A DNA stretch of 64,000 bases from Lingula anatina (Eukaryota > Animalia > Brachiopoda). This document shows positions 4,264 to 61,987 of this stretch, in pieces (the first letter of the stretch is position 1; every line of letters starts with the position of its first letter). The stretch is from NCBI GenBank assembly GCA_051362555.1, contig CM120648.1, forward strand, positions 18,720,587-18,784,586, in the 5' to 3' direction. Both the position numbers and the translations under genes were made by a program. Below the pieces are notes generated by a model. It searched no databases and was not told the DNA's origin. It worked only from the letters and a program-made list of their open reading frames with translations.

Positions 4264-4264
4264 T

Positions 4265-5778: not shown

Positions 5779-5811
5779 TTAGATGAATCTTGATTCGGGA
5801 GAATCAATTTT

Positions 5812-15995: not shown

Positions 15996-16063
<68 letters not shown>

Positions 16064-31351: not shown

Positions 31352-31538
31352 AAAAGGCAAGGAAGTCTTTCTGGCCCTTGCAGCAATGCAGAGGAGGATA
31401 GTTACAGCAATATCCCTGTGTTTGGAAAAATCCTGCTCAGTATGGCGTATGACTCCAGAAAAGGTTGGCTGATTATACATATTTACCGATGCCAAGACCT
31501 TGCTCCAGCTGATGTGAAGAAGAATAGATCTGATCCGT

Positions 31539-31569
<31 letters not shown>

Positions 31570-34075: not shown

Positions 34076-34249
34076 AACTGTGTGTACAGTATTTGACAGT
34101 ATGTGTCAAGATTGTTTATGCTATTTGAGTCACCGTGGACTAAGAACATATGGTGTATTGCCACATATATTGACATCAGACAAATAAAGTGACTCTTTGT
34201 ATTTACTGATTTTGAACAAGCTTGCTGTTAAACTACAGTGAGGAAGACG

Positions 34250-38537: not shown

Positions 38538-41500
38538 ATTGGTGTGTGGGTTTGGCGGTGCTCTGTTCATTTATTTCCACAGGAAAATTATCCACTTTAT
38601 ACGAAAACAGAGGAAATTGTCCTCCTTTCTCCAGAAGAAGTAAGTACCAGTTACAGCAGGAGTCATCCACTGTATGTGACTTACAAGAGAGTAATTATAT
38701 GACGGTGTATAGTACAAGTAAGTAGCAGTTACAACAGGAGTCATCCACTGTATGTGACTTACAAGAGAGTAATTATATGACGGTGTATAGTACAAGTAAG
38801 TAGCAGTTACAACAGGAGTCATCCACTGTATGTGACTTACAAGAGAGTAATTATATGACGGTGTATAGTACAAGTAAGTAGCAGTTACAACAGGAGTCAT
38901 CCACTGTATGTGACTTACAAGAGAGTAATTATATGACGGTGCAACTGATTTGCACATGTATGTCACATACAGTAGACCACAAGTGGTTGTATAGCTGCTT
39001 CAAGCTTTTATAGGATGATTACACTTGTATTTCGCTTACAACACAGTGAAGCATGTTAATATAGATGAGCGAGCAATTATCCCATTGTTGCTAACAGTAA
39101 ATGTTTTTATGATTGTTATCACATAAGGAAATGTTTGGGATAATTATGTGAAAAGGACATAATGAAGATACCTTTTATTAGCATTCAGTTTATTCCCATT
39201 TTTTGTGTGATATAATGTGTAGTAAATATAACATGTTTTATTTATTTCAGTTGATTCATCTATCCAACTGTGATAACATTTTATGTGTAGATATAATGTG
39301 TAGTAAATATGATGTGTTTTATTTATTTCAGTTGATTCATCTATCCAACTGTGATAACATTTTATGTGTAGATATAATGTGTAGTAAATATAACATGTTT
39401 TATTTATTTCAGTTGATTCATCTATCCAACTGTGATAACATTTTATGTGTAGATATAATGTGTAGTAAATATAACATGTTTTATTTATTTCAGTTGATTC
39501 ATCTATCCAACTGTGATAACATTTTATGTGTAGATATAATGTGTAGTAAATATAACATGTTTTATTTATTTCAGTTGATTCATCTATCCAACTGTGATAA
39601 CATTTTATGTGTAGATATAATGTGTAGTAAATATGATGTGTTTTATTTATTTCAGTTGATTCATCTATCCAACTGTGATAACATTTTATGTGTAGATATA
39701 ATGTGTAGTAAATATGATGTGTTTTATTTATTTCAGTTGATTCATCTATCCAACTGTGATAACATTTTATGTGTAGATATAATGTGTAGTAAATATAACA
39801 TGTTTTATTTATTTCAGTTGATTCATCTATCCAACTGTGATAACATTTTATGTGTAGATATAATGTGTAGTAAATATGATGTGTTTTATTTATTTCAGTT
39901 GATTCATCTATCCAACTGTGATAACATTTTATGTGTAGATATAATGTGTAGTAAATATGATGTGTTTTATTTATTTCAGTTGATTCATCTATCCAACTGT
40001 GATAACATTTTATGTGTAGATATAATGTGTAGTAAATATGATGTGTTTTATTTATTTCAGTTGATTCATCTATCCAACTGTGATAACATTTTATGTGTAG
40101 ATATAATGTGTAGTAAATATGACGTGTTTTATTTATTTCAGTTGATTCATCTATCCAACTGTGATAACATTTTATGTGTGATATAATGTGTAGTAAATAT
40201 AACATGTTTTATTTATTTCAGTTGATTCATCTATCCAACTGTGATAACATTTTTGATATCCACTCTATCCTTCCCCCTGGGGCTGGGGCAGTATACAGCT
40301 GGAATGGTAGGTATCATGGGGGGTGGGGGTGTTATCCTTTCCTCTGGGGTTTGGGCAGTATACAGCTGGAATGGTACGTATCATGGGGGTGGGGGTGTTA
40401 TCCTTTCCTCTGGGGCTGGGGCAGTATACAGCTGGAATGGTATGTTTTCTAGAAACATTTTTCACAAGACTAGGAAGCAAATATATGATTAGTTTGTCCG
40501 ATTTACCAACACAACTTACCAAACACCTCTTTCCTGCATTAGTAATAGATACATCAAAATGTACAGAGATTATACTGCTGTGGGCATAAGTCACTTTCCA
40601 CAACTCATGACAGTCCATCTGTCCTTTCAGTTCTCATGGAGAAATTTAATGTACTTTCAGTTAACTCACCGAGAAGCTGTGAATGAGTTGTTTAGTAACT
40701 TCACATGGTCCACGAGGGAAGCAGAGAACTTAGATCTGGACCAACTAGAGGTTCTCAGTCACTGGAATCACCCGGACACCAGCGTCTACGTCACACTGAC
40801 TTTGTTTATTATTATACAGGTGAGATTTACTCTTTGTATGAGAAGACCAAATATCAACCCCAGTCTAATTGTATGAAGATTTTAAGAGTTGGCAATTTGA
40901 AAATATGTCAGTTATAACCTAACTTTAAAATATGCCATGTGTCTCTGTAATACTTAAATTTTTTGGTATATATAAATAATTTTGAATGGTTGTGCACTGA
41001 TTTCAGTTGTATAGAGTGATCTCACACAAACAGTTTATTTATAATAATAATGCATTACATTTGTTTCTAGTTTATGTGATCTTTCAGGTTCAGTAAGGTG
41101 CAGTGTAATAATGGAGTGTTGTATAGAGTGATCTCACACAAACAGTTTACTTATAATAATAATGTATTACATTTGTTTCTAGTTTATGTGATCTTTCAGG
41201 TTCAGTAAGGTACAGTGTAATAATGGAATGTTGTACAGAGTGATCTCACACAAACAGTTTACTTATAATAATAATGGATTACATTTGTTTCTAGTTTATG
41301 TGATCTTTCAGGTTCAGTAAGGTACAGTGTAATAATGGAGTGTTGTACAGAGTGATCTCACACAAACAGTTTACTTATAATAATAATGGATTACATTTGT
41401 TTTCAGTTTGTGTGATCTTTCAGGTTCATTAAGGTACAGTGTAATAATGGAATGTTGTATAGAGTGATCTCACACAAACAGTTAACTTGTAATAATAATG

Positions 41501-44500
41501 GATTACATTTGTTTCCAGTTTGTGACAGCTGCTTTGGCTGGTTCTCTCCCCATTCCTGCTGGAGTGTTCATTCCTGTCTTCACTATAGGTAAGTTGTGTC
41601 ATCATTTCACCACTTACTGTTGCCTTGTCAACTATTCCCCATGCTGCAGACTGCGCAATTACATATTAAAGGAAAGCTTTTTTAATAACATTTCATTTTG
41701 TTTTGTTGTGTTTGTTAAAATTGATAACATGACTGTTCAGCAGTAGGTATGAGCAGTTTGAGTTCAGGTACATTGATAATTCTTTATTCATTTGAATAAT
41801 TTTCATCATCCTTGGATAATCTACTAATTAATTATATATGGGTGGTGAATTTAAAAATGATGCAAATGAAAGAGAATTTTAATAATTATGCTGTTCCGTG
41901 AAAAGTTGAACTTGAAAAGCACTGACCTTGACCTACAGAAACCTGTCCACTCTGGTCTCACAGTGTCACACCTGAAGATCGTGACAGCTGTTGTTGTGGC
42001 TGAATGCCCATTTTCCTTCACTATGCTGCCATCTTCAGGTTAAAATTAGCTAAGAGAATGTTCTTAATTATTCCCAGGTGCTGCCTTTGGTCGTCTTGTA
42101 GGAGAGTGTTTGACGACGTGGTTCCCCAGTGGAGTGAGGATGGGGGATCAGGTGTCTCCTATAGTCCCTGGAGGATATGCTGTAGTAGGTAAGTGTATGA
42201 CTACATGATATCCCAGTGAAGTCAGGATGGGAGAGCAGGTGTCTCCTATAGTACCTGGAGGATATGCTGTAGTAGGTAAGTGTATGACTACATGGTATCC
42301 CAGTGAAGTCATGATGGGAGAGCTGGTGTCTCCTATAGTACCTGGAGGATATGCTGTAGTAGGTAAGTGTATGACTACATGGTATCCCAGTGAAGTCAGG
42401 ATGGGAGAGCAGGTGTCTCCTATAGTCCCTGGAGGATATGCTGTAGTAGTTAAGTGTATGACTACATGGTATCCCAGTGAAGTCAGGATGGGAGAGCTGG
42501 TGTCTCCTATAGTACCTGGAGGATATGCTGTAGTAGGTAAGTGTATGACTACATGGTATCCCAGTGAAGTCAGGATGGGAGAGCAGGTGTCTCCTATAGT
42601 ACCTGGAGGATATGCTGTAGTAGGTAATATCATGTAACTCAGCAGTACTCTCTACAAACCCATGATAGTAACTACAGGTATGAAAATTGATCACTTCAAT
42701 TATACTTGATCTAGTGTGTCAGGTATTTTAAATATTTGAAAAAAAAATGAAAATTATTATTCCAAAATGAGTTTTTCAGTACATTATTTATTAATAAGTC
42801 AGCTGTACATGTATCTTAATGCAGCAGCTATTGCTCTTTAAGCTGGCTGATATCGCATTGGAAAAAATGTCAGTAGTATGTTCCTTTCAATGTATTTTTG
42901 CTTACATAATCATAAAATATGCGTGTATCATTTGTGTAGGAGCTGCTGCTTTGGCAGGAAGTGTTACCCACACCATTTCCACCTCTGTGATAGTGTTTGA
43001 GCTGACGGGACAGATATCCCACATTCTACCTGCTGTGGTAAGACAACTGATTGTTTGATAAATGTGATAGTGGTTGAGCTAACGGGACAGATATCCCACA
43101 TTCTACCTGCTGTGGTAAGACAACTGATTGTTTGATAAATGTGATAGTGGTTGAGCTGACGGGACAGATATCCCACATTCTACCTGCTGTGGTAAGACAA
43201 CTGATTGTTTGATAAATGTGATAGCGTTTGAGCTGACGGGACAGATATCCCACATTCTACCTGCTGTGGTAAGACAACTGATTGTTTAATAAATGTGATA
43301 GCGTTTGAGCTGACGGGACAGATATCCCACATTCTACCTGCTGTGGTAAGACAACTGATTGTTTGATAAATGTGATAGTGGTTAAGCTAACGGGACAGAT
43401 ATCCCACATTCAACCTGCTGTGGTAAGACAACTGATTGTTTGATAAATGTGATAGTGTTTGAATTAATGGGACAGATATCCATATTCTATTAGCTGACAG
43501 CATTGTTGGTCTTTCTAAAATTCAAATATATTAAATAAATTTTATAAAACCAACACATATTTTTCATTATCTGTATATCATTTGTATACTCCAGATAGCA
43601 GTGTTGATAGCCAATGCAGTCGCCCACAGCCTTCAGCCGTCCATTTATGACAGCATCATCCAGATAAAGAGGCTACCTTACCTGCCTGATATTATCCCCA
43701 CCAAGTCCAGGTAATAAGTGATATAATCCCCACCAAGTCCAGGTAATGTGTGATATCATCCCCACCAAGTCCAGGTAATATGTGATATCATCCCCACCAA
43801 GTCCAGGTAATAAGTGATATCATCCCCACCAAGTGCAGGAAATATGTGATATCATCCCCACCAAGTCCAGGTAATAAGTGATATCATCCCCACCAAGTCC
43901 AGGTAATATGTGATATCATCCCCACCAAGTCCAGGTAATATGTCATATCATCCCCACCATGTCCAGGTAATATGTGATATCATCCCCACCAAGTCTAGGT
44001 AATATGTGATATCATCCCCTCCAAGTCCAGGTAATATGTGATATCATCCCCACCAAGTCCAGGTAATGTGTGATATCATCTCCACCAAGTCCAGGTAATA
44101 TGTGATATCATCCCCACCAAGTCCAGGTAATATGTGATATCACCCCTACTAAGACAAGGTAATATGCGATATCACCCCCACCAAGTCCAGGTAATATGTG
44201 ATATCATCCCCACCAAGTCTAGGTAATATGTGATATCATCCCTACTAAGTCAAGGTAATATGTGATATCATCCCCACCAAGTCTAGGTAATATGTGATAT
44301 CACCCCCACCAAGTCTAGGTAATATGTGATATCATCCCTACTAAGTCCAGGTAATATGTCATATCATCCCTACCAAGTCCAGGTAATATGTCATATCATC
44401 CCTACCAAGTCTAGGTAATATGTGACATCATCCCTACCAAGTCCAGGTAATATGTGACATCATCCCTACCAAGTCCAGGTAATATGTGACATCATCCCTA

Positions 44501-47500
44501 CCAAGTCCAGGTAATATGTGACATCATCCCTACCAAGTCCAGGTAATATGTGATATCATCCCCACCAAGTCTAGGTAATATGTGATATCACCCCCACCAA
44601 GTCTAGGTAATATGTGATATCATCCCTACTAAGTCCAGGTAATATGTCATATCATCCCTACCAAGTCCAGGGATGGAACCATGGTTCGTGGAAGCAGTGT
44701 TGAACCAGTCAGATTTTTAAAAATCAAAATATATGTGTGAAAACTCCTCCTCTAACCCTTATTTTGTCCTGTCTGTTATACCTTGAACATAGCACTGGCA
44801 TATCAGGACCTCTGTGAGATTCCAAGACATGGGATTTATTAACTGAACATTGTACACTGTTCTGTAGTCTTCTTACTTAGTGTTATATTCCAGTATGTCA
44901 GTTTTACATGATATTATCAGGTTTGAAAGCATCTTTCCTCTGATATTCCGATAAACTTTTTCACCAAACAGTTTATAACAGTTATATATGAGACATTTAT
45001 TTTTAGTATTTAGACCACTAACATATTGTTATATGTATACAATATAATGATATGCCATTCAGAAGACAATCATATCCATTATGTTGTGTATATTTCCAGA
45101 GTCCATGATTCTCCTTGGGTCTGTACAGAGACTGGAGCTGGAACTGCTACTGGAGGCTCAGCTTGGACGACAGCGCCGCCTGGCAGCAGTGGAAGAAACA
45201 TTACATAAACGGCAACAGGAAGAGGAGGAGAGGAAGAGAGCCAAGGAACAACTGGAGAAGAGGACGTCCCAAGGCGATACCGAGGGGACGCGACCAATGG
45301 CAGCCTGCAGTGGAGATATGTTGAACGCTGTGAAGGTCCACCGCCAGCCATCGGCCAGGTTTACGGTGACCCCTGCAGCCAGCAAGGTGGACAGTGGTGG
45401 ACAGGTCCAGTTGAAGCTGGACTCCACGGTAAACAGTGTGTGTGTTTGTGGATTTGAATGATAATCATAGGGACCATTCCACAGATGTTTGGAGCAATCT
45501 ATCTCCCAGGGGAGCCTCACTAAATTACTATCAACTTAACCGGCTTTAGTGTCTTTCAGGCCTAGTAAAGCTGTTAGGGGGTAATTATCTTTACCCCCTA
45601 GCTTATTTGGTGGCTGTGACAGACATTTAAGCCAGTTATTTTAAAGCAATTTATTGAGACTTCCCAGGGAGTTAGACCAATCCAGATGGATCGATCTAGG
45701 CATGAGAACCCAGTCTTAATCTTTTTTAGTTGTGATAAGGCCACACTTTTTTATTTTTATGGATGACATCCTGCGCGCGCACCGATTTTCGTCCGTTCTC
45801 CAAAAAAAAAAAAAAAAAAAAAAAATCCCCCCCTCCCCCCCCCCCCCCCCCCCCCCAATCGAAGTCGGTTGTCGCAAACGTCGTGATAGAATTTGCCGGA
45901 AAATGAGCTTTCTGCGCATGCGTATTACTGCCACGTGGAAATATGGCCGCTATGCCATCAAATTCATCTCTAGGATTACTTTCAAATTACAGGACAATTA
46001 ATTATATAAAGTCATAAAGAGAACGGGGCCGTCGTTTTGGATTGTTATGCCATTGATATTGGGCATGGAGATATCCACTTTTTTACAATTATGTGAAAGG
46101 CTGGCGGCGGCCAGCAATTATCGCCCGGAAAATTTCAGTGACATATTCCTGTCCAAAGCAGCACATACCAGGTTTTTTGTAGCGAAAAAAGGGTTGACAG
46201 GGCGTCGAGGTATTTGGTGGGCTGTAGGTCGGTCAGGCCACCCGACAATTTGGCTGCTTCGTGTGAGTCGAAGTAGACCAAATGGCATCGACCGAAATGA
46301 CCTTTTATAGATATGGTAGTAATAAGCATATCTTTGCATCGTTTTGTAACATTTCTGTGTAGTGTTCATAATGCTTTAATATTCTGAGAGTACAAATAAA
46401 GACATGCTGTTTGTTTGATATTTGTTTTATTGATTGTTATACCAACAAAATGCATGAAATAACCTTAAATAGATTGGGTAATATGCAGCATGTCTATCAG
46501 GCCCGTAGCCAGCAATTTCAAAAGGGGGGGTTCTTTTTTTGAAAAAGTGGACCATTTTCCATAAAAACTTAATGTATCTAGTTCAAATTTTACCCAGAGT
46601 GGACCTTTTCCCAGCAAAAGGGGTGGTTCTTTCGAACCCCCTGGCTACGGGCCCGTCTATTCATGACTTTTTTTTTACCTTTCTACGAAGCATTCACAAT
46701 GCTTTAATATTTTGAGAGCATGGATAAAGACATTTTGTTAGTTTGATACGTGTTTCTGTGGAAAATTTGGGTTTCCAGCTGTGTACTGACAGCATTCCTT
46801 TACTTAAGCAGCATTTTTTTTTTTGGGACTCTTTTTTTTTTTCGCCCTCTCGCACCGATTTCGGGGTCCCCAGAGGATGTCATCCATAAAAATAAAAAAG
46901 TGTGGCCTAATATATGTGAAATGATATTACTACATTATCTCTGCCATCATTCCAGCCACCAGAACATACAGCTAATGGAGACACGCTGAAACCACACAAG
47001 TACACCAAGGCACCACAGAGAGGGATATTAAAGAAGAGTCCCCGTCCCAGCCCCCGAGCTAGTCCCAGGGCCAGTCCTAAAGGAAGTCCTCAGTCTTCAC
47101 CTCGCTCTAGTCCACCAGGGTCTGCCAAGACAAGCCCAACACCCAGTCCACAGTTAGGTTAGTCAGCTCTGTGATACTACATTGTTCTCAGAGTAAACTT
47201 TTGATGGAACGCAGTCTTGTATATGTGTGTGTTATAAGTGTAGTTATTTTACCTAGGTAATTATGTATCATCCACCTAGCTACACCCCAACCATTAATAA
47301 TATATTATATAAGTAAAAAAAAATAAAAGCTGCAATAATATTGTTTTTGGTTTCAACACAGTACATACACCCTGATAGATAATATGGTTAATTTAAGGGC
47401 CAAAATTGTCTTGAAAATATTTAAATTCTCAATAAAATTACACTGCAGTTTCTCGAAAATAATAATGATAATAAATAAATAAATAAATAAAAATAAATTT

Positions 47501-50500
47501 AAAAAAAAATAAAGGGTATGGTGTATGTAATTTTGTATTGAGTAACGAAATTTGAATGATGTGAATAACCATTTAAAATGACTAAATTAGAGTATTGTGA
47601 TTATTAAGTAATCCTTCCATTAGATTACTTGATGCAGAGTGCTGATGCTGCAACATGAGGTTAAAAATTGCTCACATTTAAGAAGATAATTTTATCTCTC
47701 TATAACAGGTACCTATATAGTATATTCACCTTTAGGTTTATTTACCATCACACTATTGTTTTCCATGTACCTTTCTCTGTTTATTTTGATAATGAAGTTT
47801 AATTGATTTTGATTTTACAGAAAAGAAATTCAGCATAGGACTAGCAAAGATTTTCAAATCTCGAAGTAAAGAAAGTATCGCGGACAGTACGGCTTCTGAA
47901 GATGATGAAGCTCAGGTAACTATGGCAACAAACTGATAAACAGCATGGGATGTTTTAGTTTAATAGTCAATATTTACAGGGTTCTTTATTCTACTTATGA
48001 AGGATTAGCAGTGTGAGGACTCCATTATATCTACATTATATTATATTATATTATATATAGCATCGTGAGTATCATAAGAGTCATATATATCTATATCATA
48101 TTATATCTACATCATATTATATATATAGCATCGTGAGGGTAGTGGCTAAGTTTACATTTATCTATTTATCTGTGTTTAATGTTATATTTTATTTATTTAT
48201 ATCTTTTGCATGTGCTGTAAGTCTCTTCATACATGAAGTACCAGTTTGAAGTTAATAGTTAATACTTGAAGATATATAATATCTATATAGTAATAGAGTG
48301 ACCATGATGTAAGGTTTAAGAGTGTGATACTGATACGTGAAGGTCAACATACCTGTATCTACCCAGGCTTGTCAACTGTTTGCCCTCTGAGTCAGTACAA
48401 CAGTTAGTGTGTGGTATTACACCATTAAACTACCTGAAGGTCAACATACCTGTATCTACCCAGGCTTGTCAACATTTTGCCCTCTGAGCCAGTACAACAG
48501 TTAGTGTGTGGTATTACACCATTAAACTACCTGAAGGTCAACATACCTGTATCTACCCAGGCTTGTCAACTGTTTGCCCTCTGAGTCAGTACAACAGTTA
48601 GTGTGTGGTATTACACCATTAAACTGCCTGAAGGTCAACATACCTGTATCTACCCAGGCTTGTCAACTGTTTGAACTCTGAGTCATTACAGCAGTTAGTG
48701 TGTGGTATTACACCATTAAACTACCTGAAGGTCAACATACCTGTATCTACCCAGGCTTGTCAACTGTTTGCCCTCTGAGCCAGTACCGCAGTTAGTGGTA
48801 TTACACCCGTGCTAACAGCCAACTGCCGTATGCACTGTACACTTAGTGTTATATACAGCATATAGTTTCATTCTCATGGTCTGTCTGATTTGGTGAAATG
48901 TAGATATTAACTGTAAGTGAAATGGTCTGGGTATTATTTGAATGTCTGCTTTTATATTATATTTCACTATTGACAGGATTCCTCCCTATATGAGTTGGAC
49001 CCCGAGTCTGACAGGTTCTTACACAGGCGTGGCAAACATGCCCATGTAAAGCTGGTAAGAAGATGGCTGCTGCTTTACAAACCACGTTTTATTTGATCAT
49101 GTGACTTGTTATCTAGTCATGTGACCACAGCTTTTGACCACATGTTTTGCCATTGTTTCACAACTTTTGACTGCAGTGTGTAGGTGATTTAATTTTTGTA
49201 GCAGATTGCTGTGAGTGTGTTTTATCATAACCCATTTTTTGTTAGTAATTCCTAGCAAGACTGTTGGTTGCCGTTGTGTGGCTTGATTTTAGTTTTCTTA
49301 TATGGTAAAATTTTCAGAGCTGTCCTTGTGTCTGTAAGTATAGCTTGATGATTGCAGTTGTCAAAGAGTGAAGATTTTAATTTATTTTCTGTTTGGTTTT
49401 TGCTAAGAATACTATCTGAATGCTGTTATTTTGCTGTGATCATTTTTGAGGATGAGACAGAAAGGCATGACTACAGGTAATGTTGTTATAGATAGACTTA
49501 GGAAACTATAGAGAAATACACCTTTACTGCTGATTGAAAAGAACAGAACCCAATTGTCAAAATGTAATGAAAAGTAGATTCTAATCATTTTGTAACGGTT
49601 TTCTAACAAAAACAGCATCTGCACCAAAAGCTGCTTCTGTTTTGATATTTTTTCTGCTTGCAGTGAAAACCAATATGTTTTGTCTACAAAATCATTTTCA
49701 TTTGGATTGAAACATATATTCTTGAGACCCTGACTGCTTGGATTGATATAAAGTTTTATTTTATAAAAAATTGTATTATTATTTTCTTTCTTGTCATCAA
49801 TTAATAGTCTTCACATCCAAAAGAACTTCATAGCAACCAAGATGAGACACTATAAAACCTGGACTGGTTTTCTAACTGTTCATGTAGTTCAAACCCCATA
49901 AATGTGTCTGGCATATTTAATAAACGACACATGCAGATATCAAAGAATCGTCAAAAGTTGGAGCACATTTACTCTCCCTAAAGGTTGCCGCCTTAGTGCA
50001 GAGTATCAATTTGTGAAATTATCCTCTCTTGTTGTTCACTGGCTGTGGTAATTGAGTTGTGTTATCATGTAAACTGTTATGAGGGGAATTATGCAATGGC
50101 TGCTGCCCAGAAACCTATTAAATATATAGATAAACACTGATTTATAACATTCTCAACAGATGATATTGTGCAAACAATTCTGTTGGGAAGTATAAATTGG
50201 CATATGAACAAAAACCAGTTGAAAATCAAGATGAACATGCACTGATATTGACAGGGGTCAGCTGCTCTCTGCTTTCTCTGTGCACCAGCTTATAATTACT
50301 AGTTGTACATATTTGGGGAAGTTCCTTAACTGACTGCCACTCCCCCCCCCCCCCCCCCCCCACCACTCCTTCACAATGGTGATCTTCATCTGAAATCTAC
50401 TAATGAGACTATCATGTTTCTTACTACTATCTATACTTTCCTGTGTACATCATTAATACCTTGCATGTTGAGGCCTGGTGGCCTAAAATATCTTATGATT

Positions 50501-53500
50501 TATGGTGGTTCATCCATTGGCATGCTTTAATAATATGTCTTTATGTTTACTAACACCTTTATTATTTGATTTCAGTTGTCAAGAAATACCCTTCCTCCTT
50601 ACATTCTCTTTAAATTTTATAGTACAGGGATGGGAGCATCCTCCTTCAAATTTTGAATTACAGGGATGGAAATTTCCCAAGGTTTTAGCAGAAAAGACAA
50701 CTACATTTTGTTAGAAATGCTACAAGAGTAGGAGACGTCAGTGTTGAAAAGTAGGTGCAGGTTCCTTTCTCTCCAAACATTGTTTGTTCCCATCCCTGTA
50801 CATGATATGTAGCAGTTAAAACACCATTAAACCAGCACTTTGATGTGCAGCATATTTAAGACACCATTCCCAGAGCCTATCACACTAACTTTGGATCGGT
50901 CCAGGGGGATTCCCACTAAATTGCTATCAAATTAAGCAGCTTAGATGTCTCGCACACCCACTGATGCTGTCAGGGGGTAATTAACTCATTAAGCAGCTTA
51001 AGTAGGTGTGCCAGACATCTAAGCTGCTTAAACTGAAAGCAATTTAGGGAGAAAAACCCTTGGAGATAGTTCAATCTTCTAAGATCGATCTAGGCATGGT
51101 AACCCAGTCTTATACCTTATTAGTCAACTCTGTTATGTGCATGTGCAGCATATTTAATATCCTATCAGTCAACAATGTACCTTGTACCTTGATAGCATGT
51201 GCATGATATCCATACCCTTATATTTGCAGATCACATTATTGTCAAATACACAATTTTCCAAATATATATTTTAAAGCAAGGCTTCAAGTGATGGATTGTC
51301 ATATGCACATATTTATTGTTGATGTTTAAGGAGGCCCAGTATGTAGAACATTATTATTAACAGTGGATTTCTATTAATATTGGGTTGAAAGTTACATTGC
51401 ACTTGCTGTTTCTTAGATAGTTTAATTTGCAGTCAACAATTTTAGGTATTACACTCTCATAGATGTAATCAACATTGATACAACTTATCTGTTCGCCAGA
51501 ATTTTTTTTCTCAAGAAGTTAGGTTTCTTGGCTACTGAAATGAGAGTGTAAACCAAGTATTTGTTGTCATGGTAATTCTTTCTGTTGCATGTTTTTCTTC
51601 ATTTTCCTTTCCCTGCATTTTCTCCACTAGAGGTCTCTTCTAGACGATTTCCCCGAGCAATATACTGACTCTGTGCGAAGTGGCAAAAGTGTTCAATTTA
51701 ATGTCATGGACTTACAAGAGGTAAGTTTAATGTCATGGGTTTACTAGAGAAAATGTTAAAGTGATGAACATGCAGGTGAGTCCTGAACCATGCTTTCATA
51801 AACAAAATAAACAGAGGCTGGCAGATCTGCTGCACTGTGGAAATTATACTTTTGAAATACTGCCACTACCCATGTCAGTAATTATCAGTGATGTTTTTAA
51901 AAGTAATAAATATTGTTATGTGTCAGTTACTGCATCCCAGAGCTAATAATATGATATCATGGAGGATACTGGGGTCTAGTCAGGGTCAGGGGGAGATCAG
52001 AGGTGAAGTGAAGGTCAGGGCAAGGTCAGAGGTGAAGTAAAGGTCAGGGAGAGGTGAGAGGTAAAGGTCAAGAAATTGTCATTTGTCCATCACAAGATCA
52101 GTCTTGGGTCAAGAGACCCAGAAATGTGCCAAATGAAGTTATATTGAAACAGTCATTTGACAACTGGGATGTAAAGCAGTTGTTTCTTTATGTATAATAT
52201 TATTTATTAATTATGATTTTATCGATATGAATATTATTTCTTTAATTTTTTGGAATTTTATAGGCTTACCAAATATTTCATAGTTGAAGGCTAATTTTAA
52301 GGTTGCTTTTTAGAAGTGACTTAGTAGACATGCTTTTCTTGCTAGTTTATACATGTATATATTTTAGATGTCTAGCTTTCCTATGGAATATTGTATCACT
52401 TGTGGTGATACTCTAGTAGTATTTACTGTTATACCCCAGACACTGGTTAAGGGGTGTATAGACTACAGGTTGGCTGTCTGTTAAGTTTGTTCATTAAAAT
52501 TGCTTGACTTGGTGAAAACATCACATAACAGGTCAGCAGATTGTATAACTGAAAATTTTCAGACTTTTTTAAGATGAAGAAAAGGTAAATGATGTTAGTG
52601 AATTTTATGGATATTTCTTTGTATTACGGTAAGTTGATTTCAGGAATGCATCTAGTAAGGTGTGATGTGTGGTATATTTGATCTGTTTATCATGTGTGTG
52701 TTGTGTTTAGAATTTATTTTGTCATGATTGTAGAACTTGCAGTGATGAGAGCCTTAGTGTCTTCACTAGAACAGCTTGCAGTGAACTGACACATGGTTAT
52801 ATACTATATAGACTTCAGAGAGTATCTAGAACCAGTTTCAGAAAATGACTTAAAAGTTTGCTTTTCTTTAAAGTCTATATTGCATTCAACATAAATTCTG
52901 AATTAAAGACAAGACTTTAAACTTAGCTGAAATCGCCCTACCTGATTATCAATAGAATGTTATTTTAAAACCCGATATTTTATTTGAAAGGTATAGGTGA
53001 TGAGATCAATAACCTTTATAAAGATGTTGCGTAGTTTATTTGTATTAAAATAGCACATTTCTATACTTCAAAAATAAACTGATTTCAAAAAGTTGTCATT
53101 CTGTCATTGGATTATTTCTCTTCATTTGCAAGCCTCCACAGAGAGTGATAGATTAAAGTGAAAAAGAGGTAAAGTACCAGTAGCATGATGTGTGCTGTGT
53201 TCATTTATAAACTGACATCAGAGAAGACTTACATCCGCTGTGTTATGTTAGAACAATTAAGTAATTTTTCTTCAATCAACAGCTAGGGGAGACCGGGGCT
53301 AGTTGGACCCCGGGGTAAGTTGGCCCCCCATCAAGTCTCTTTAATCAAGTTACTTTAAGATGCTAAATTATTTCATTTGGACTCCCTGCCAACGCTTTCT
53401 TAGCACTATTGGATGCGGTCACTTTACGTGATAGATACAATACGAGTCGCCGAGCTGTACGTGAAATATTACGAGTGTATTGGCGAGCCGCAGGCGAGAC

Positions 53501-56500
53501 AATACACGAGTAATTTTCACGTACAGCTCGACGACGAGTGTTGTATCTGGCTTAAACCACGGCCTCTGATTGGCTACTACATTAGTAGTGCAACAGACCG
53601 TGGAACGCACTCGTACATGACGTGCTTGTATGTCGCATACAGCACGGCCGAGTCTTTTGTTCTACGCGCTAGCCGTGGTTTAAAAAATGATGTGATCAAT
53701 TCTTTTACCCCACAGTTACTTTGTCATAAATTGATGGGGAGCCAACTTACCCCGGGGTCCAACTAGCCCCGGTCTCCCCTAATATTTGGCAGCGAATATT
53801 GCCTCATTCCATGATGTAGATACTCATGAGAGACAATGAAATATTGGAGGTAATTATTAGCTGCCAGTATTCACTGGCCGTTGAAGAAAAATGTCTTTAT
53901 TCTTAAACTGACATATTGTTATTGTTGTTTAGTTCAGTCAAACCCAACCAAAGAATTTAAAACCATGTTCAGAAGAGGCAGATGAAGGCGGTTATTTTGA
54001 CAGAAGCTTCGAAACCAGAAAGAAAGTGATGAAGTGTATAATATGCCAATTTATATGCTGCTTCTTTAAATATATGTTACATTTTGTTTACTTATTGATG
54101 TCAGGGGCAGATAATAAGGGTTGAAATGTCAAATAATAGACATAAAGTGTGACCTATACCATCCCATCCCCAGGCACAAATAGTAGTTAAGATGTGAATT
54201 ATGGTTTTATCCTAGATATTCAATATTAGTACTTGAACCTAACTCACACTGCTTCATTTTGACAGCCTTAAGTCATGCCAAAAACTATAAGTATAATAGT
54301 ATAAATATTTCACAACTGTCACTGTGAATGAAAATCATAATATTTAATCAATAACAAAAATAAAAAAATAAGTCTTGAGATTCAATTTTTTAAAAAACTT
54401 ACATAAAAGTGTATCACATTCTACTGAATTACAACTTTATAGGCTAAGAATTGGTTAAATTCCTTCTTGGATCACTATAAGGCTTTTGCAGTTAAGATGG
54501 AAGGCTTTATTATATGAAGCAGGGTCTGGCTCTGTAGATATTAATGACAACCTGTTTTATTGCTCTCTATAGATGTAAAATGACACAGTTGGTATTACAC
54601 TGGGCCTGGGTCTGTAAATTCCATTGCTGGTCAGTTTTATTTCTTCCAGTAGTCATAAAATAGCACAGCTCTCAGTGGCAGATATTAAGAGGGGTGTTAG
54701 GGGGGTCCTGACCCCTCCCCTCCCCTTCGATTACTGAGAAAAAAATCACACCTATAATTCCTCTTGAAATTAGAATTTTGTGTAGCTTAATCATAGTTTT
54801 AAACTATACCAGATGTCACCATTCACCAAATAAAATACCAAAATATCAGCGGGCCCCGAACCCCACGTCAGCAGGGGAAGGGGAGACTTCGATTCCATGG
54901 ACCACCCCCTTCAAATAATTCTGGCTCCGCCCTTGGCTCTTATTGCACAGTAATGCACTGCTTGTAGTGCTCTAGATATGGTTAGTCTCTTCCTCCATGT
55001 AGTGTTGCCATTTTGTATAGCCTGATTAAAGCTCATCTTATATGACAATGACAATGAACAGTTTCCTAAATTTGAATGATTCTTGATAAGTTTAGTCTTG
55101 TTCTGCTTACTGCTAACATTAGATTGGATTGCTGTCCTAATTTTGGAGAGCACTGTAGATGGTCATGATAGTGTCATTGTTTTGACATGGTGTGACATTT
55201 GTTTGACAGTGTTGTGACATTGTATTGATGATAGTGTGATGTTGTTTGGGTGTAGTGAGACATCTTCACAATGTTTTTTTTATGTACAGACACAGATGTG
55301 TCTGTACATATAGCCATCATCTGCGTCTGTCGTCGCCGTCGTTGCCGCCGTCGCTGTCGTCGCCGTGCACTTTTACCGATAACACGATAAGTGGAAAACT
55401 GTTTTTTATTTCAGCTTGAAACTTACAGAATTGATGAATATTTATAATATGCAGGTCAAGTTCAAAAATCAGCATGATCGGGTCAATTGTAGGGAAGTTA
55501 TGCTGTTTTTTCACTTTTTTCAGCATATATGCAGCACCGATAACATGATAAGTGGAAAACCATTTTACCTTTTGGTTTGAAACTTACAATACTGATGAAT
55601 ATTCATAATACGCAGGTCAAGTTCGAAAATCAGCATGATCGGGCCATTTTTTGGGAAGTTATGCTGTTTTTTCACTTTTTTCATCATATATGCAGCACCG
55701 ATAACACGATAAGTGGAAAACCATTTCACCTTTTGGCTTGAAACTTACAGAACTGATGAATATTCATAATACGCAGGTCAAGTTCGAAAATCAGCATGAT
55801 CGGGTCACTTGTAGGGAAGTTATGCTGTTTTTTTCACTTTTTTCAGCATATATACAGCACCGATAACACGATAAGTGGAAAACCCTTTTACCTTTTGGCT
55901 TGAAACTTACAGAACTGATGAATATTCATAATACGCAGGTCAAGTTCGAAAATCAGCATGATTGGGCCATTTTTAGGGAATTTATGCTGTTTTTTTCACT
56001 TTTTTCAATATAAATGCAACACTGATAACACAATATAAGAAAAACGGATTGGCCAATTGTCATTATACTCACAGAAGTTGTCAATCTTACTAAAACGCAG
56101 GTTGAGTTCAAAAATCAGCATAAGCGGGCCATTATTTTAGAAGTTATACTGTTTTTTCACATTTCCTCAGATTCAATTATTAGGCATGTTAACAGTCTCA
56201 TTATTGAACTAATAAGATGCGTAAAAGTGTTTGTTTGATATTTCCTGCATCTTTACAACATTGTTAGTTGATTATGTAAAAAACATGGTAAACTTGTTAT
56301 CATGTAATGTGTAATAAAGTGTCAAAAATGGAAATAAACTCATATCATTGCAGTTTGTCAGATTCAATCATCCACTATGTTCAGAATCTCAGAATGGAGG
56401 AAATTGGACATTTAACACTGTTCTATTGATACTTTTCCCATCTCATCAATTTTTTTAGTTGGCCATATAAAAATGGCAGTAAAATGTTTATTTTGTTTTA

Positions 56501-58333
56501 TGTTAAAAAAGTGTTAAAAATGGAACTAAACCCATTTCAGAACAGTGCTGTCTTGTTTACATTTTGGCATTTTCAAGATGTGACTTTGAAGTTCCATGGG
56601 CCTGAAGACCTTTGCTAGTCACATTTTCTGAATATCCGTGATACTAATATCTTATAATTAAAAATTGATGGTCATTATGCTGTTAAACATTATGTAATAT
56701 TGCATCAAAATTTGAAGAAACCCCTATTTTGGGCACTGCTCCCATGATGACCATTTAAGGAAAATCATGTCACTTACTGTTCTCAAACTTACAGGAAAGA
56801 AACATGGGACTAAAATATAGCTTCAGTAGGCAATGCAGTCTGTTTGGTAATTTTTTCTGGCAATTAAACAGTTTTTTTGTGAAAATTTAATTTTTCACAT
56901 GTTGGCATTTTCAAGGTGTGACTTTGAAGTTCCATGATCCTGAAGGCCTTTGCTTGTCACGTTTTCTGAATGTCCATGTTACTAATATTTTATTAATAAC
57001 ATTTGATGGTTATTATGCTGTTAAACATTATGTAAGGTTGCATCAAAATTTGAAGAAACCTCTATTTAGGGCACTGCTCCTATGATGACCATTTAAGGGA
57101 AATCATGTCACTTGCTGTTCTCAAACTTACAGGAAAGAAACATGGGTCTAACATACAGCTTCAGTAGGCAATGCAGTCTGTTTGGTAAAATTTTCTGGCA
57201 ATTTAACAGTTTTTTTGTGAAAATTTAATTTTTCACTTATTGGCAATTTCAAGGTGCAACTTAGAACCTCCACGGGCTTGAAGACCCATACTAGTCACAT
57301 TTTCTGAAAATCCATGATGTATATTTTATTATTAAAAATTGATGGTCATTATGCTGTTAAGCATTATGTAATGTTGCATCAAAATAGAAGAAAACACAAT
57401 TTTTGGTGCTGCTGCCATGATGACCATTATGGGAAAACCATGTTACTTATGATTGTCAAACTTTCAAAAAAGAAACACATGGCTAAAATGCAGCCCGAGT
57501 TGGAAAAGCAGTCTAATTGGCTTCTTTTTCTGGAAGTTATACATTTTAGTGAAATATTCATTATCTTTTTGGCATATTCATTGTGGGACTCAGAGCTCCC
57601 ATGGGCATGAAGCCGTATGGTAATCAAATTTTCTACATGTCCATGCTATTTATAGTCAATAATCAAAAATTGGTGATAATTATTCTATAATTTATTATGT
57701 AATGTTACATCAAAATTGACAATAATCTTTTTGCACTGCTACTGCAAACATTATGAAAAGAAAACTGTGTTTATCATTATCTTTAACTTATAAGTATGAT
57801 TTTTAGGATTGGCATGTAGTTCAAATTACAAAGCCAGGTCAATTGGGTTATCATTTATTATTGAATTTTATGCAATTTTGTGTGAAATTTTCATTTTTCT
57901 TATTCTGGCACTTTCTAAGCATAAACTTGAACTCTGATGGGCCTGAAGCCTTATGCTTTTATTTTCGTCGGTGTTACCTGTTGTGCAAAATTAAAATTTA
58001 ATGTTGACTGTGCAGTTAAACATAATGTATTATTGCATCAGAATTGGTAGTCTCCTATTTTGTGCATTATTGTTTTGTGCTTTTCTTAAGTTGTGACTTA
58101 TGGGCCTGAAAGACCTTTGAGAGGGTTAGTCTGTCAATTTCCCTTGGGTATCACTTAGCTAATTTCAGTGTTATAATTTGCCTAATTGATAGGCCATTAA
58201 ATGAGATTACATAAAGCACACTTGTTGATATTTCCCTGTAAACTCCCAAAGGTAAAGCTCTCTGCTAGATTAATAATAAGGAAGCAATGATAATTATGCA
58301 GGTAAATTTTGTTTAATATTGCAAATAAGTTTT

Positions 58334-58402
<69 letters not shown>

Positions 58403-60904
58403 TAAAAGTTTGAATAGCAGCTTCATTGGTATTATATTTACCTCTGCCAAGGAGGTTATATTTTCACCCCTGTTTGTCTGTCATCAACATAACTCAAAAA
58501 GTTATGGACCAATTTTGCTGAAAATTTCAGGAACTGTCAGAAGTGGGCCAAAGAGGACAATAATCAATAATAATCAACAATTGCTGCCTTGTTAATTTTT
58601 TTCTCAAACACTGGCATTTGTGACTTATAACTTCCATCCACCTGAGGCTCTGCTCATTTTCTGTATTTCCACATAAGCAGTTGTATTGTTTTTTATGTCT
58701 TTAAACATTATGTTATATTATTTTATGCACTGTCATCATTTTTCAAATATTGAGACTTTCATCATGTGACTTTGGTCTCTTATGGTCCTGAAACTGTAAT
58801 CTTATTGAAGGGGTGGATTGAGACCATCTTCTGGGTCTTCCGGAAGACAGTCAGGTTATTAACTTTATATTGACTGGTATCTGTTTTTTTTCTGTTGGAA
58901 GACCTTCAAAATGGAGGATGGATCAAAATAGATACTTTGGATTACTGTCAGAAAATATCTCTGGATCTGCTCCTGTTATGGATCTGCTCCTGCCTGGGCA
59001 GAGGTCTGCACTCTCAGAGTGCTTTTCTAGTTTTGTTTATTTTCCTTAATAACTTTTTTCTCAAACGCTTGCATTTGTGATATTTAACCGCCTGAAGCTC
59101 TGCACATTTTCTGTATTTCCACATAAGCAGTTGTATGTTATTTATGTTTTCAAACATTATGTAATATTATTTTATGCACTGTCATCATTTTTCAAATATT
59201 GAGACTTTCATCATGTGACTTTGGTCTCTCATGGTCCTGATACTGTAATCTTATTGAAGGGATGGATTGAGACCATCTTCTGGGTCAGCTTCCGGAAGAC
59301 GTTCGGATTTTTAAGTTTATATTGACTGATATTTATTTTTTTTTTCTGTTGGAAGATCATCAAAATAGAGGATGGATCAACAAAGATACTTTGGAATACT
59401 GTCAGAAAATATCTCTGGGTCAGCTCCTGTTATTGACCATGTTACCTGTTGTGCATGATTAAAATTCAGTGTTGACTAACAGTGCTATTATAAGCATTAT
59501 TTATTATTGCATCAAAATTGGCAAAATGACCTATTTTGCATCATTATTTTCTGTTTTTTGTCTGTACATTTGACAGCTTTGCTGCCTTGTTTTAACATGG
59601 TGTGACATTGTTTTGACAGTGGTGTGGTATATTTGGACCTAGTGTGACATTGTTTTGATGTAAGTGTGATGTTGTTTGGATGTTTTGACATTTTTACAGT
59701 TTTTCTTGGACATGGTGTGACATTTTTTGACAGTAGTGTGACATTGTTTTGACAGTAATGTTTATTCTGTAGCAAAGACAGTGGGAGGAAGAGCAGTTGA
59801 AATGTCAGGTGAAGTTTGAAGAGGCTCAGATAGACCCCGCCCCCTTCCAGCTAGTGGAGAGGACTTCCTTACAGAAAGTAAGATGTAAAAAAAAAAAAAA
59901 AACAGAACATTTAGAAAATGCATGGTTGGTTTTCAAGAATGTTCATTTTATCCGCATCTCTGTCTTTTACATAAATAAAATTATTTCCAAAATTCGATAA
60001 TGACTGGGGAATTGAAAAAAGAGAGGATCATTTAATCAAAATAAAATTTAGCATCAATGCAGAGGAATCTGTCGGAGTGTTTCAGCTTATTCTTGGAAGA
60101 AATGGATCCATCATAATGGCATGGGAGAACTGAATTGTACATGCATTCTTTACAGTACCTAAGTAGTTAAGACTTCACTGTTTCACTTCTTTCTCACTAT
60201 GTGGTTGTGGCTATGTTTCAGGTTCACTCTCTGTTCTCACTGCTAGGCCTGAACCATGCCTATGTCACCAATACAGGGAGATTGGTAGGAGTGGTTGCAC
60301 TTAAAGAGGTAAACACACATCAACATGTTACTATCATAACTATATAATACTGTAAACTTGAACCATGTCTATATCACCAATACAGGGAGGTTGGTAGGAG
60401 TGGTAGCACTTAAAGAGGTAAACACACATCAACATGTTACTATCATAACTATATAATACTGTAAACTTGAACCATGCCTATGTCACCAATACAGGGAGGT
60501 TGGTAGGAGTGGTAGCACTTAAAGAGGTAAACACACATCAACATGTTACTATCATAACTATTTAACACTGTAAACATCAGAATTGCTGCTATTTGGCACT
60601 AGAAAAGTAAATGCTTAATGTGTTTAAAAGTTGTTACAGTATTACTCAGCCTTTGTTAAATCTTGTGTGACCCAAGTCTTGTGTAAGGTGTTACACTCTC
60701 AAAGTATAGGTCAGAGAATGATGGAACAAGTTTAACAAATCACAGCATGGGGTAATGCAATCAGCCTGCATTTTGTGCTTGCAGGTAAGGAGGGCCATTG
60801 AGGGCCAGGTAGAAGAAGACCATGAACTGATGCGGACACACAAGCATGGCAATACTGTGGAACTGGAGATGGAAGTGAGGGAACGGTCGGATAGTGAGGC
60901 TTGA
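38538..60904 (+). CDS. CLCN2: Chloride channel CLC-2 / ClC-a, 3' two-thirds; disrupted as assembled (TGA at 40223, CBS1 exon absent)
   Basis: Exons 38538-38639, 40222-40306, 40661-40819, 41519-41588, 42078-42188, 42940-43037, 43595-43710, [gap], 45100-45428, 46956-47157, 47821-47915, 48977-49054, 51631-51720, 59773-59877, 60222-60308, 60785-60904 (TGA). Hallmark peptides: [120 protein letters not shown]. Confidence 0.9.
38638..38940 (+). repeat. 78-bp x4 tandem array starting at a CLC-2 splice donor
   Basis: AA|GTAAGT at 38640, 38718, 38796 and 38874. Confidence 0.95.
39200..40254 (+). repeat. 81-bp x13 tandem array spanning a CLC-2 splice acceptor plus ~30 nt of exon
   Basis: TTTTATTTATTTCAG|TTGATTCATCTATCCAACTGTGATAACATTTT repeated, with acceptor AGs ending at 39250 through 40221. 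Confidence 0.95.
40266..40444 (+). repeat. 66-67-bp x3 array spanning an exon end plus donor
   Basis: GCTGGAATG|GTA at 40307, 40374 and 40440. Confidence 0.9.
41006..41525 (+). repeat. 112-bp x~4.6 array spanning an acceptor
   Basis: TTACATTTGTTT..AG|TTT ending at 41070, 41182, 41294, 41406 and 41518. Confidence 0.9.
42098..42627 (+). repeat. 87-bp x6 array made of most of an exon plus donor
   Basis: GGAGGATATGCTGTAGTAG|GTAA at 42189, 42276, 42363, 42450 (mutated), 42537 and 42624. Confidence 0.95.
42985..43489 (+). repeat. 77-bp x6.5 array spanning an exon end plus donor
   Basis: CCTGCTGTG|GTAAGA at 43038, 43115, 43192, 43269, 43346 and 43423. Confidence 0.95.
43687..44670 (+). repeat. 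32-bp x~31 array spanning an exon end plus donor
   Basis: Unit TGATATCATCCCCACCAAGTCCAG|GTAATATG, repeated from the donor at 43711. Confidence 0.95.
45739..46907. mobile_element. PIF/Harbinger-type MITE, carrying a smaller MITE (~46498-46655)
   Basis: TIRs GGCCACACTTTTTATTTTTATGGATGACATCC / GGATGTCATCCATAAAAATAAAAAAGTGTGGCC with a TAA TSD on both sides. The inner element has GGCCCGTAGCCAG / CTGGCTACGGGCC ends. Confidence 0.8.
48338..48807. repeat. 97-bp x~5 intronic tandem repeat
   Basis: TGAAGGTCAACATACCTGTATC at 48338, 48435, 48532, 48629 and 48726. Confidence 0.9.
53286..53779. mobile_element. Tc1/mariner/pogo-type MITE
   Basis: 49-bp TIR (GGGGAGACCGGGGCTAGTTGGACCCCGGGGTAAGTTGGC...) with one mismatch, a TA TSD, and a CpG-rich interior suggesting a young insertion. 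Confidence 0.85.
55277..59590 (+). mobile_element. Full-length 4.3-kb HINE family B element in a CLC-2 intron
   Basis: 5' ATGTACAGACACAGATGTGTCTGTACAT hairpin/subTIR, a (GTC/GCC)n microsatellite and ~160-bp x4 tandem units. The 3' subTIR TGTCTGTACAT is followed by a GACAGC-TTT-GCTGCC hairpin and a T run. The same ~20-bp minisatellite (GGTGTGACATTGTTTTGACA) lies on both flanks, with no TSD. Confidence 0.8.
60250..60576 (+). repeat. 109-bp x3 array spanning an exon end plus donor
   Basis: GCACTTAAAGAG|GTAAAC at 60309, 60418 and 60527. Confidence 0.95.
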
Positions 60905-61195: not shown

Positions 61196-61545
61196 TGGCA
61201 TGTCATGATAGTCCATGACTTGACAGTCAGTGTCATGGTAACCATTGCCATGACAATATGCCATGACAGTGCATGACCTGACATTCAGTATATGGTAATT
61301 GTTGCCATGACAATATGCCATGACAGTGCATGACCTGACATTCAGTATATGGTAATTGTTGCCATGACAGTCCATGACCTGACATTCAGTACCATGGTAA
61401 CCATTGCCGTGACAATATGGCATGACCGTCCATGGCCAGACATTCAGTATCATGGTAACCGTTGCCATGGCAACATGGCATGACAGTCCATGACCTGACA
61501 TTCAGTACCATGGTAACTGTTGCCATGACAACATGCCATGACAGA
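61196..61545. repeat. ~60-bp degenerate tandem repeat in the CLC-2 3' UTR region
   Basis: CCATGACCTGACATTCAGTA..ATGGTAA..GTTGCCATGACA recurring about 6 times. Confidence 0.8.
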
Positions 61546-61734
61546 CTATGTCGTCATATACAGTTACACAGTAACCATTGTTTCAGTTCATAATAATGCC
61601 AATATCATTTTATCCATGTTAAATTTGTTTGGGTCCTTAAGTAAATAAATACATTGTAACTACTGGTGTATGGGGGTGAGGGGGGGGGGGGGGTTCATGC
61701 CAAGGCAGTCCTTTTGTACCCAGAGTTTAAGAGT

Positions 61735-61987
61735 CTACTGTAGACTGACCTGTGTAATCATCATGTCTTCCAGAAAGGGAGGGGAGACATGATGATAATA
61801 CAGCTTACTGGTAGTTTACTGTAGACTGACCTGTGTAATCATCATGCCTTCCAGAAAGGGAGGGGAGACATGATGATGATAATAGAGCTTACTGGCAGTT
61901 TACTGTAGACTGACCTGTGTAATCACCATGCCTTCCAGAAAGGGAGGGGAGACAAGCTGATAATAGAGCTTACTGGCAGTCTACTGG
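61735..61987. repeat. ~84-bp x3 tandem repeat
   Basis: TACTGTAGACTGACCTGTGTAATCA...TTCCAGAAAGGGAGGGGAGACA occurs three times. Confidence 0.85.

What the first reader, a model, noticed from the sequence alone, without database searches (positions are those of the whole stretch)
38638..60576. Systematic splice-site-anchored tandem arrays: boundary after boundary of CLC-2 is amplified into its own satellite
Seen in sequence: nine arrays with mutually unrelated units each contain a real splice site. Donor arrays: 78 bp x4 (38640), 67 bp x3 (40307), 87 bp x6 (42189), 77 bp x6.5 (43038), 32 bp x31 (43711), 29 bp x2 (51721), 109 bp x3 (60309). Acceptor arrays: 81 bp x13 (40221), 112 bp x~5 (41518). 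Six of seven consecutive transmembrane exons carry at least one. The exon body stays intact at one end while the copies extend into the intron as decoy splice sites. The 14 exons of the two neighbouring genes carry no such arrays. Inference: this is too regular for random minisatellite birth. It suggests a boundary-directed duplication process (splicing/R-loop-coupled, or methylation/nucleosome-edge repair), or strong filtering of gene-body duplications, and it requires strict exon definition to pick one of up to ~30 near-identical sites.
Basis: partly seen in the sequence, partly recalled or inferred. Interest (0 to 1): 0.85.

Follow-up and report, generated by a model that had tools for sequence, protein, structure and literature searches.

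The report
Splice-site "mirage" repeats in brachiopod channel
Nine exon edges of a lamp-shell (Lingula) chloride-channel gene have been copied head-to-tail into the neighbouring intron, a repeat type already known from lancelets and chickens; at the five edges tested, RNA reads from other animals use the site next to the exon, so the spare sites are likely tolerated repair scars, and the gene copy in this window is itself broken.

Summary
Real, but a known kind. All nine arrays are present. They hold 9 of 29 CLC-2 splice sites, against 0 of 22 in the neighbouring genes; 9 of 24 window arrays sit on a site, 1.9 expected. The host is Lingula. Such arrays are the lancelet "mirages" and chicken "exon stuttering" (PMC3087553, PMC12954441), and this scan has already found them twice in this genome and in other genomes.

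RNA reads from other individuals use the exon-adjacent site at the five arrays tested (48 reads; three reads placed on a spare copy are explained by an allele match). An independent DNA run holds units of four arrays, which argues against an assembly artefact.

It lacks the N-terminal 322 residues and the CBS1 exon, and it has a stop codon whose base matches all 12 spare acceptors.

Spare copies differ from the exon mostly at third codon positions (12 of 16), and 5 of 9 testable ones match expressed alleles. This hints at repair between alleles. Why exon edges are favoured stays open.

The parts
38539..38639 (+). First CLC-2 exon present in the window (matches residues 323-356 of P0002); upstream exons absent
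   Evidence: tblastn
38638..38941 (+). Donor array, 78 bp x3.9; unit = 2 exonic bases + intron start
   Evidence: 17 RNA reads join this exon end straight to exon 40222
39197..40253 (+). Acceptor array, 81 bp x13; 12 spare AG sites, each followed by about 32 exon-derived bases; about 7-bp microhomology at the ends
   Evidence: unit junction in DNA run X2
40222..40306 (+). CLC-2 exon with an in-frame TGA at 40223-40225; the T is shared with all 12 spare acceptor copies, expressed alleles have C (Arg)
40266..40442 (+). Donor array, 67 bp x2.7 (41 exonic + 26 intronic bases)
   Evidence: 15 joint reads use the first donor; a spare copy appears inside model P0003
40661..40819 (+). CLC-2 exon without an array; a faint acceptor look-alike lies at about 40625-40636
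   Evidence: contigs of run X2 show a further acceptor-like copy here (loose ends)
41006..41521 (+). Acceptor array, 112 bp x4.6; four spare AG sites
   Evidence: 9 RNA reads use 41519; unit junction in X2 and in 2 reads of X12
41519..41588 (+). CLC-2 exon
42078..42188 (+). CLC-2 exon
42098..42627 (+). Donor array, 87 bp x6.1, almost wholly exon-derived; 5-bp microhomology; the first spare copy carries an in-frame stop
   Evidence: 7 RNA reads leave the true exon for exon 42940
42940..43037 (+). CLC-2 exon
   Evidence: RNA loose ends
42986..43489 (+). Donor array, 77 bp x6.6 (52 exonic + 25 intronic); last copy partial and degenerate
   Evidence: not tested with RNA
43595..43710 (+). CLC-2 exon, end of the membrane domain
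43687..44671 (+). Donor array, 32 bp x30.8 (24 exonic + 8 intronic); 28 of 30 spare copies keep GT
   Evidence: a spare copy appears inside model P0002; not tested with RNA
44672..45099 (+). Interval where the CBS1 exon is expected and missing; joining 43710 to 45100 shifts the frame to a stop
45100..49054 (+). Four C-terminal exons without arrays (45100-45428, 46956-47156, 47821-47915, and 48977-49054, the last not in P0002 or P0003); intronic 97-bp x4.8 array at 48334-48797 holds no splice site
51631..51766 (+). Exon 51631-51720 with a decayed 29-bp duplication (51698-51766); the second copy has no GT
   Evidence: read-through into it ends model P0002
60222..60575 (+). CBS2 exon 60222-60308 with donor array 109 bp x3.0 (60250-60575)
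   Evidence: not tested with RNA
60785..60904 (+). Last coding exon with stop codon

Best explanation
These are 'mirage' minisatellites: short tandem duplications that straddle one exon edge of a Lingula CLC-2 gene and that likely arose as error-prone DNA-repair scars, grew by unequal exchange, and are tolerated because splicing takes the site next to the exon body. Step 1, inferred: a 30-110 bp seed duplication forms by end-joining or template slippage. Two arrays show 5-7 bp microhomology and one is blunt; the rest cannot be read because the far copy is partial. Step 2, inferred: copies multiply and homogenise by unequal crossover or conversion; spare copies share differences from the exon. 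Step 3, logical necessity: only duplications that leave one whole exon and push the spare copies into the intron survive in a working gene. Step 4, shown at five arrays in other individuals: mRNA uses the exon-adjacent site; use of the next spare site would give a stop or a frameshift at all seven arrays examined, so leaks would likely be degraded. Step 5, least certain: the excess at exon edges likely comes from repair between two alleles that pair in the conserved exon and lose homology where the more variable intron begins. The window's own copy is likely a dead partial duplicate or broken haplotype.
For: Arrays and sites. Enrichment. Splicing: 17 reads for the 78D/81A intron, 15 for 67D, 9 for 112A, 7 for 87D; no RNA depth on the intron-derived parts 40173-40204 and 40333-40396. 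Frame effects. Independent presence: run X2, which differs from the window at many bases, holds 81-bp and 112-bp unit junctions, a piece across the 67-bp unit junction and variant 87-bp copies; RefSeq-named models with an intact N-terminus contain spare-copy peptides of the 67-, 32- and 29-bp arrays. Allele hint: majority differences between spare copies and exon fall on codon position 3 in 12 of 16 cases (P 0.0008 against one third, 0.038 against one half); 5 of 9 testable third-position bases occur in expressed alleles, 0 of 3 others. L. anatina heterozygosity 1.6% (PMC4595640, passage). Tandem duplications from end-joining of aborted recombination intermediates are shown in C. elegans (PMC8654963, abstract).
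Against: Read numbers are small, and the tool lists a joint or loose end only from 3 reads. Four arrays (77, 32, 29, 109 bp) were not tested with RNA. Of the RNA donors, only X12 is shown to carry an array (2 reads). Poly(A) RNA cannot show degraded leaks. The allele hint is weak: with the decayed 29-bp array it is 13 of 19 (P 0.08 against one half), 5 of 9 against 0 of 3 is not significant (P 0.20), and retention of the ancestral base explains the same matches. Junction-only letters (8, 23, 40 bases) are not templated from 600-bp flanks (345-473 of 500 shuffles match as well), so there is no positive polymerase-theta insertion signature; later deletion in the far copy explains them equally. 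The fast-evolving neighbour genes have no arrays, which the allele model does not by itself predict. The three lesions could be assembly errors; no long reads were available.
Confidence: 0.6

Rival explanations
1. Transcription- or splicing-coupled damage (R-loops, paused polymerase, spliceosome assembly) or a chromatin edge places DNA breaks at exon borders in germline-expressed genes, and end-joining turns them into seed duplications.
For: Accounts for edge enrichment beyond the survival filter and could explain why one gene is hit and two immune-type neighbours (Roc-COR-HEPN_DZIP3 and a CARD-like gene) are not. CLC exons are CpG-depleted.
Against: The most CpG-depleted gene has 0 arrays at 7 sites. 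It does not predict the third-position excess. No germline expression or R-loop data were examined.
Confidence: 0.25
2. Birth is unbiased; this is a local minisatellite-rich, exon-dense patch picked out of many windows, and edge-spanning arrays merely persist longer than purely intronic ones.
For: Window chosen for the pattern; seven arrays fall in one 7-kb stretch; two intron-only arrays exist. In chicken, exon copies are a minority of intronic repeat expansion (190 of 5,572 dot-chromosome introns; PMC12954441, passage).
Against: 7 of 7 on sites even inside the dense stretch (P 6e-4). Unchecked notes report the same excess elsewhere in this genome, which is a lead, not support.
Confidence: 0.12
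3. The arrays piled up because this copy is a pseudogene free of selection.
For: Missing 5' half, missing CBS1 exon and a stop codon; several private missense changes against RNA.
Against: Models with an intact N-terminus and CBS1 exon also contain spare-copy peptides of three arrays. All arrays keep the exon body on one side, as selection would require.
Confidence: 0.05
4. The arrays are assembly artefacts.
For: No long reads were seen; the lesions lie beside the two 1-kb arrays.
Against: Copies differ from each other and from the exon in a structured way; unit junctions stand in an independent DNA run and in RNA reads of another animal.
Confidence: 0.02

Closest known systems
Amphioxus 'mirage' minisatellites (Adh3, globins BflGb6 and BflGb9, troponin C, PGBD5); PMC3087553 and PMC3902484, passages read; the 2002 Adh3 paper was not held
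   Same: Tandem units spanning an exon-intron boundary, at donor or acceptor ends; many but not all copies keep GT or AG; normal splicing; units of 10-160 bp there, 29-112 bp here; mechanism stated as unclear.
   Different: Other phylum (Brachiopoda); nine in one gene; enrichment measured here; the host copy is broken.
Chicken 'exon stuttering' on dot chromosomes; PMC12954441, passages and first part of the Discussion read
   Same: The lateral part of an exon with its donor or acceptor is copied through the adjacent intron while the exon is unchanged.
   Different: There tied to GC-rich dot chromosomes with massive intronic expansion; here GC is 32-43%.
Human F7 intron 7, 37-bp VNTR; PMC1557585, abstract read
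   Same: First unit spans the exon-intron boundary; identical downstream donors stay silent; the most upstream one is chosen.
   Different: A single locus, donor only; it explains donor choice, not acceptor choice or origin.
Lingula anatina chloride channel protein 2 models P0002 and P0003 (PF00654, PF00571)
   Same: 96% identical over the 53-residue query exon; most C-terminal exons 91-100% identical.
   Different: The window copy lacks residues 1-322 and the CBS1 exon and has an in-frame stop.

Membership tests
Mirage minisatellite | Tandem repeat whose unit spans an exon-intron boundary | tested here: met
   9 of 9 arrays contain a boundary; two hold only 2-3 exonic bases
Mirage minisatellite | Both 5' and 3' boundaries can be duplicated | tested here: met
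   7 donor, 2 acceptor arrays
Mirage minisatellite | Many but not all copies keep GT or AG | tested here: met
   28 of 30 (32 bp), 4 of 5 (87 bp), 12 of 12 (81 bp), 0 of 1 (29 bp)
Mirage minisatellite | Normal splicing is undisturbed | tested here: met
   48 reads at 5 of 9 arrays, from other individuals; low depth
Mirage minisatellite | Concerted evolution among copies | tested here: met
   Spare copies share differences from the exon, e.g. 10 in the 87-bp array, 29 of 30 copies at one site in the 32-bp array; no tree was built
Mirage minisatellite | Copy-number polymorphism or somatic instability | tested here: inconclusive
   Run X2 has far higher word depth on the 81-bp unit than on flanking sequence, but the tool states that depth is no copy number
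Avian sequence (exon) stuttering | Partial exon-edge copies in the adjacent intron | tested here: met
Avian sequence (exon) stuttering | GC-rich dot-chromosome setting | tested here: not met
   GC 0.32-0.43 over the gene; invertebrate host
Avian sequence (exon) stuttering | Extensive intron length variation within the species | not testable with these tools
   No long reads or second assembly on hand
Functional CLC-2 gene | Whole Voltage_CLC domain and two CBS domains in an open frame | tested here: not met
   N-terminal 322 residues and CBS1 exon not found in the window; stop at 40223-40225. The 5' exons could lie beyond the window start

The most novel reading that the evidence does not exclude
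In highly polymorphic animal genomes, repair between homologous chromosomes pairs in conserved exons and derails where intron homology ends, so exon edges are duplication hotspots. The arrays then archive other alleles of the exon end, and can leak their own mutations back into the exon: the stop codon at 40223 would be such a copy-to-exon conversion. Mirages would be a readable footprint of recombination and a built-in mutagen for the genes that carry them.
Probability: 0.25. Interest if true: 0.6.

Novelty: new member of a known kind. Interest (0 to 1): 0.25.

Why it matters
As a repeat type it is ordinary. Its use is as a dense test case: the origin of mirages is stated as unclear in the lancelet and chicken papers, and they have been proposed as a route to intron gain (PMC3087553). 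In practice they corrupt gene models: both public Lingula CLC-2 models hold peptides read from spare copies and lack real exons. If the allele-repair reading held genome-wide, it would link heterozygosity to a specific kind of structural mutation at exon edges.

Tried and rejected
No whole genome is held, so no genome-wide test was run. No RNA holder was listed by word index; raw RNA runs with the same species label were laid instead. The two lays covered 40173-41117 and 41430-42200 only, so the 77-, 32-, 29- and 109-bp arrays, the CBS1 gap and the 5' end were not examined with reads.

Spare-donor use at 40439 (3 reads of X15) was rejected: the reads reach at most 35 bases into the copy, X15's own exon allele matches that copy at 40273 and 40276, and there is no depth at 40333-40396.

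An in-frame, decay-proof extension from the 87-bp array was rejected for this haplotype: the first spare copy has a stop.

Local templating of junction letters was not found. CpG depletion does not track the arrays. The E/D match between the 87-bp copies and P0003 was not counted, because that model may itself come from collapsed copies. The 161- and 338-bp arrays in the last long intron belong to a dispersed repeat also present at 23-30 kb; they were kept in one null and dropped from another, with the same result.

Literature: searches listed no paper on such repeats in Lingula. Word look-ups in the main texts of two Lingula genome papers (PMC4595640, PMC13121700) showed no mention; their supplements were not read and may bear on this.

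Full report
Observation. Tandem Repeats Finder lists all nine arrays at the stated places. Exon edges read from the sequence and confirmed by tblastn with two relatives put one true splice site inside each. Seven are donors and two are acceptors. Six of the seven transmembrane exons between 38539 and 43710 carry one. The exonic part of a unit ranges from 2 bases (78-bp array) to nearly the whole unit (87-bp array). Spare copies mostly keep their signal: 28 of 30 in the 32-bp array, 4 of 5 in the 87-bp, 12 of 12 in the 81-bp; the 29-bp second copy has lost it.

Chance. With every array collapsed to one unit, 9 of 24 arrays of period 25 or more fall on one of 51 splice sites, 1.88 expected, P 3e-5. 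CLC has 9 of 29 sites in arrays, the neighbours 0 of 22 (Fisher P 0.0065). Neighbour exons were placed by eye and by open frame; their products match Roc, COR-A and HEPN_DZIP3, and weakly CARD. A null that removes exon-internal and whole-exon duplications still gives 9 of 11 locally born arrays against 1.29 expected, and 7 of 7 against 2.49 in the exon-dense stretch. The window was selected for the pattern and no genome was held, so the genome-wide rate is unmeasured.

Host and gene. A 53-residue exon found two proteins, both named Lingula anatina chloride channel protein 2, 96% identical. Against them the window lacks residues 1-322 and the CBS1 exon, also at relaxed settings. Joining 43710 to 45100 shifts the frame to a stop, and exon 40222 starts with an in-frame TGA. 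RNA reads have C at 40223, giving Arg; all 12 spare acceptors have T. So this copy cannot encode a whole channel. A dead partial duplicate or broken haplotype is the simplest reading. An assembly fault beside the two 1-kb arrays, or 5' exons beyond the window start, is not excluded.

Are the arrays real and in the working gene? DNA run X2 differs from the window at many bases and holds the 81-bp and 112-bp unit junctions, a piece across the 67-bp unit junction and several variant 87-bp copies; two reads of RNA run X12 span the 112-bp junction. The two public models, which have the N-terminus and CBS1 exon, contain peptides that translate from spare copies of the 67-, 32- and 29-bp arrays. I infer that at least these arrays also sit in intact alleles.

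Splicing. Five RNA runs from three studies were laid on two short stretches (5 of the 9 RNA runs listed, each read in part). In (X15; X18) reads join the end of exon 38639 directly to exon 40222, which tests the 78-bp donor and 81-bp acceptor arrays together; 7 and 8 reads join 40306 to 40661; 5 reads join 40819 to exon 41519. In one search, 4 more reads (X16) use 41519, and 3 (X15) and 4 (X19) reads go from the true exon end 42188 to exon 42940 without listed spare-copy marker bases. That is 48 reads for the exon-adjacent site. Three X15 reads were placed on the third 67-bp copy; they enter at most 35 bases, X15's exon allele equals that copy there, and the unit's intron part has no depth, so I count them as misplacement. 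Limits: events under 3 reads are not listed; four arrays are untested; the donors are other animals; and use of the next spare site gives a stop or frameshift at all seven arrays examined, so leaks would likely be degraded and unseen.

Origin. The 81-bp and 87-bp arrays have about 7 and 5 bases of microhomology at their ends, the 109-bp array is blunt, and the others end in a partial copy. Letters found only at junctions are not copied from the flanks, and by eye a later deletion in the far copy can account for them in the 67- and 112-bp arrays. Differences that most spare copies share against the exon fall on codon position 3 in 12 of 16 cases, or 13 of 19 with the decayed 29-bp pair. This rejects plain neutral decay of the copies (P 0.0008) but only weakly exceeds what is expected if exon and copy both drift (P 0.038, or 0.08). 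Five of nine testable third-position bases occur in expressed alleles (40273, 40276, 42115, 42136, 42166), none of three others (P 0.20). The copies thus look like other or older alleles of the exon end. This fits repair between alleles that derails at the exon edge, in an animal with 1.6% heterozygosity (PMC4595640, passage); tandem duplications from aborted recombination finished by end-joining are shown in C. elegans (PMC8654963, abstract). Simple retention of ancestral bases fits too. The silent-position test was run after I had seen a similar idea in note e1-10697621. CpG depletion does not follow the arrays: o/e 0.31 and 0.43 in CLC, 0.59 in the Roc gene, 0.17 in the array-free C2/CARD-like gene.

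What is known. [quoted passage not shown] Chicken dot-chromosome genes show 'exon stuttering' (PMC12954441, passages and part 1 of the Discussion). The human F7 intron 7 repeat shows that only the most upstream of identical donors is used (PMC1557585, abstract). This scan's notes list the same pattern twice in this genome and 58 findings in at least 15 genomes for these words; these are unchecked notes, not support. Seven searches listed no paper on it in Lingula.

Verdict. Observation confirmed with corrections; interpretation partly supported. A dense new example of a known repeat kind, with modest RNA evidence that the spare sites are silent, a weak hint at an allele-repair origin, and a broken host copy. 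Interest 0.25.

Noticed in passing
window 2428-7658: Young LTR retrotransposon-like element: two 1836-bp terminal repeats 99.95% identical, each with a 70-bp x2.8 array; the interior looks by eye like gag with a zinc knuckle and a truncated protease, no pol.
   Followed up: no
window 11105-21200: Roc-COR-HEPN_DZIP3 gene with two small exons (12203-12253, 14732-14764) inside a duplicated segment about 82% identical; its last exon seems to lose frame after about 148 codons.
   Followed up: partly
window 31352-34076: Gene with a C2-like start (by eye), a low-complexity middle and a weak CARD match (E 0.0014, below Pfam's cut-off); strongly CpG-depleted.
   Followed up: partly
window 40615-40680: Faint acceptor look-alike just upstream of exon 40661; contigs of run X2 show a further acceptor-like copy and 72-75 bp skips here, so the one array-free transmembrane exon may carry a duplication in other alleles.
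   Followed up: partly
window 48977-49054: Frame-keeping 78-bp exon candidate with good splice signals that is in neither public model; possibly alternative.
   Followed up: no
window 23000-30570, 55280-59590, 12360-13710: A long dispersed repeat with internal 161-bp and 338-bp tandem units occurs in several rearranged copies, 65-93% identical.
   Followed up: no
window 61200-61986: Arrays of 57/58 bp and 81 bp downstream of the CLC stop codon, not tied to a splice site.
   Followed up: no
P0002, P0003: Both public CLC-2 models are patchworks: they miss real transmembrane exons and include peptides from spare copies; P0003 also repeats the CBS1 segment.
   Followed up: partly
runs X18, X19 on window 40661-40819 and 42078-42188: Reads of study P7 are more diverged from the window (many 90-95% alike) than those of the other two studies under the same species label; a distant population or cryptic species is possible.
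   Followed up: no
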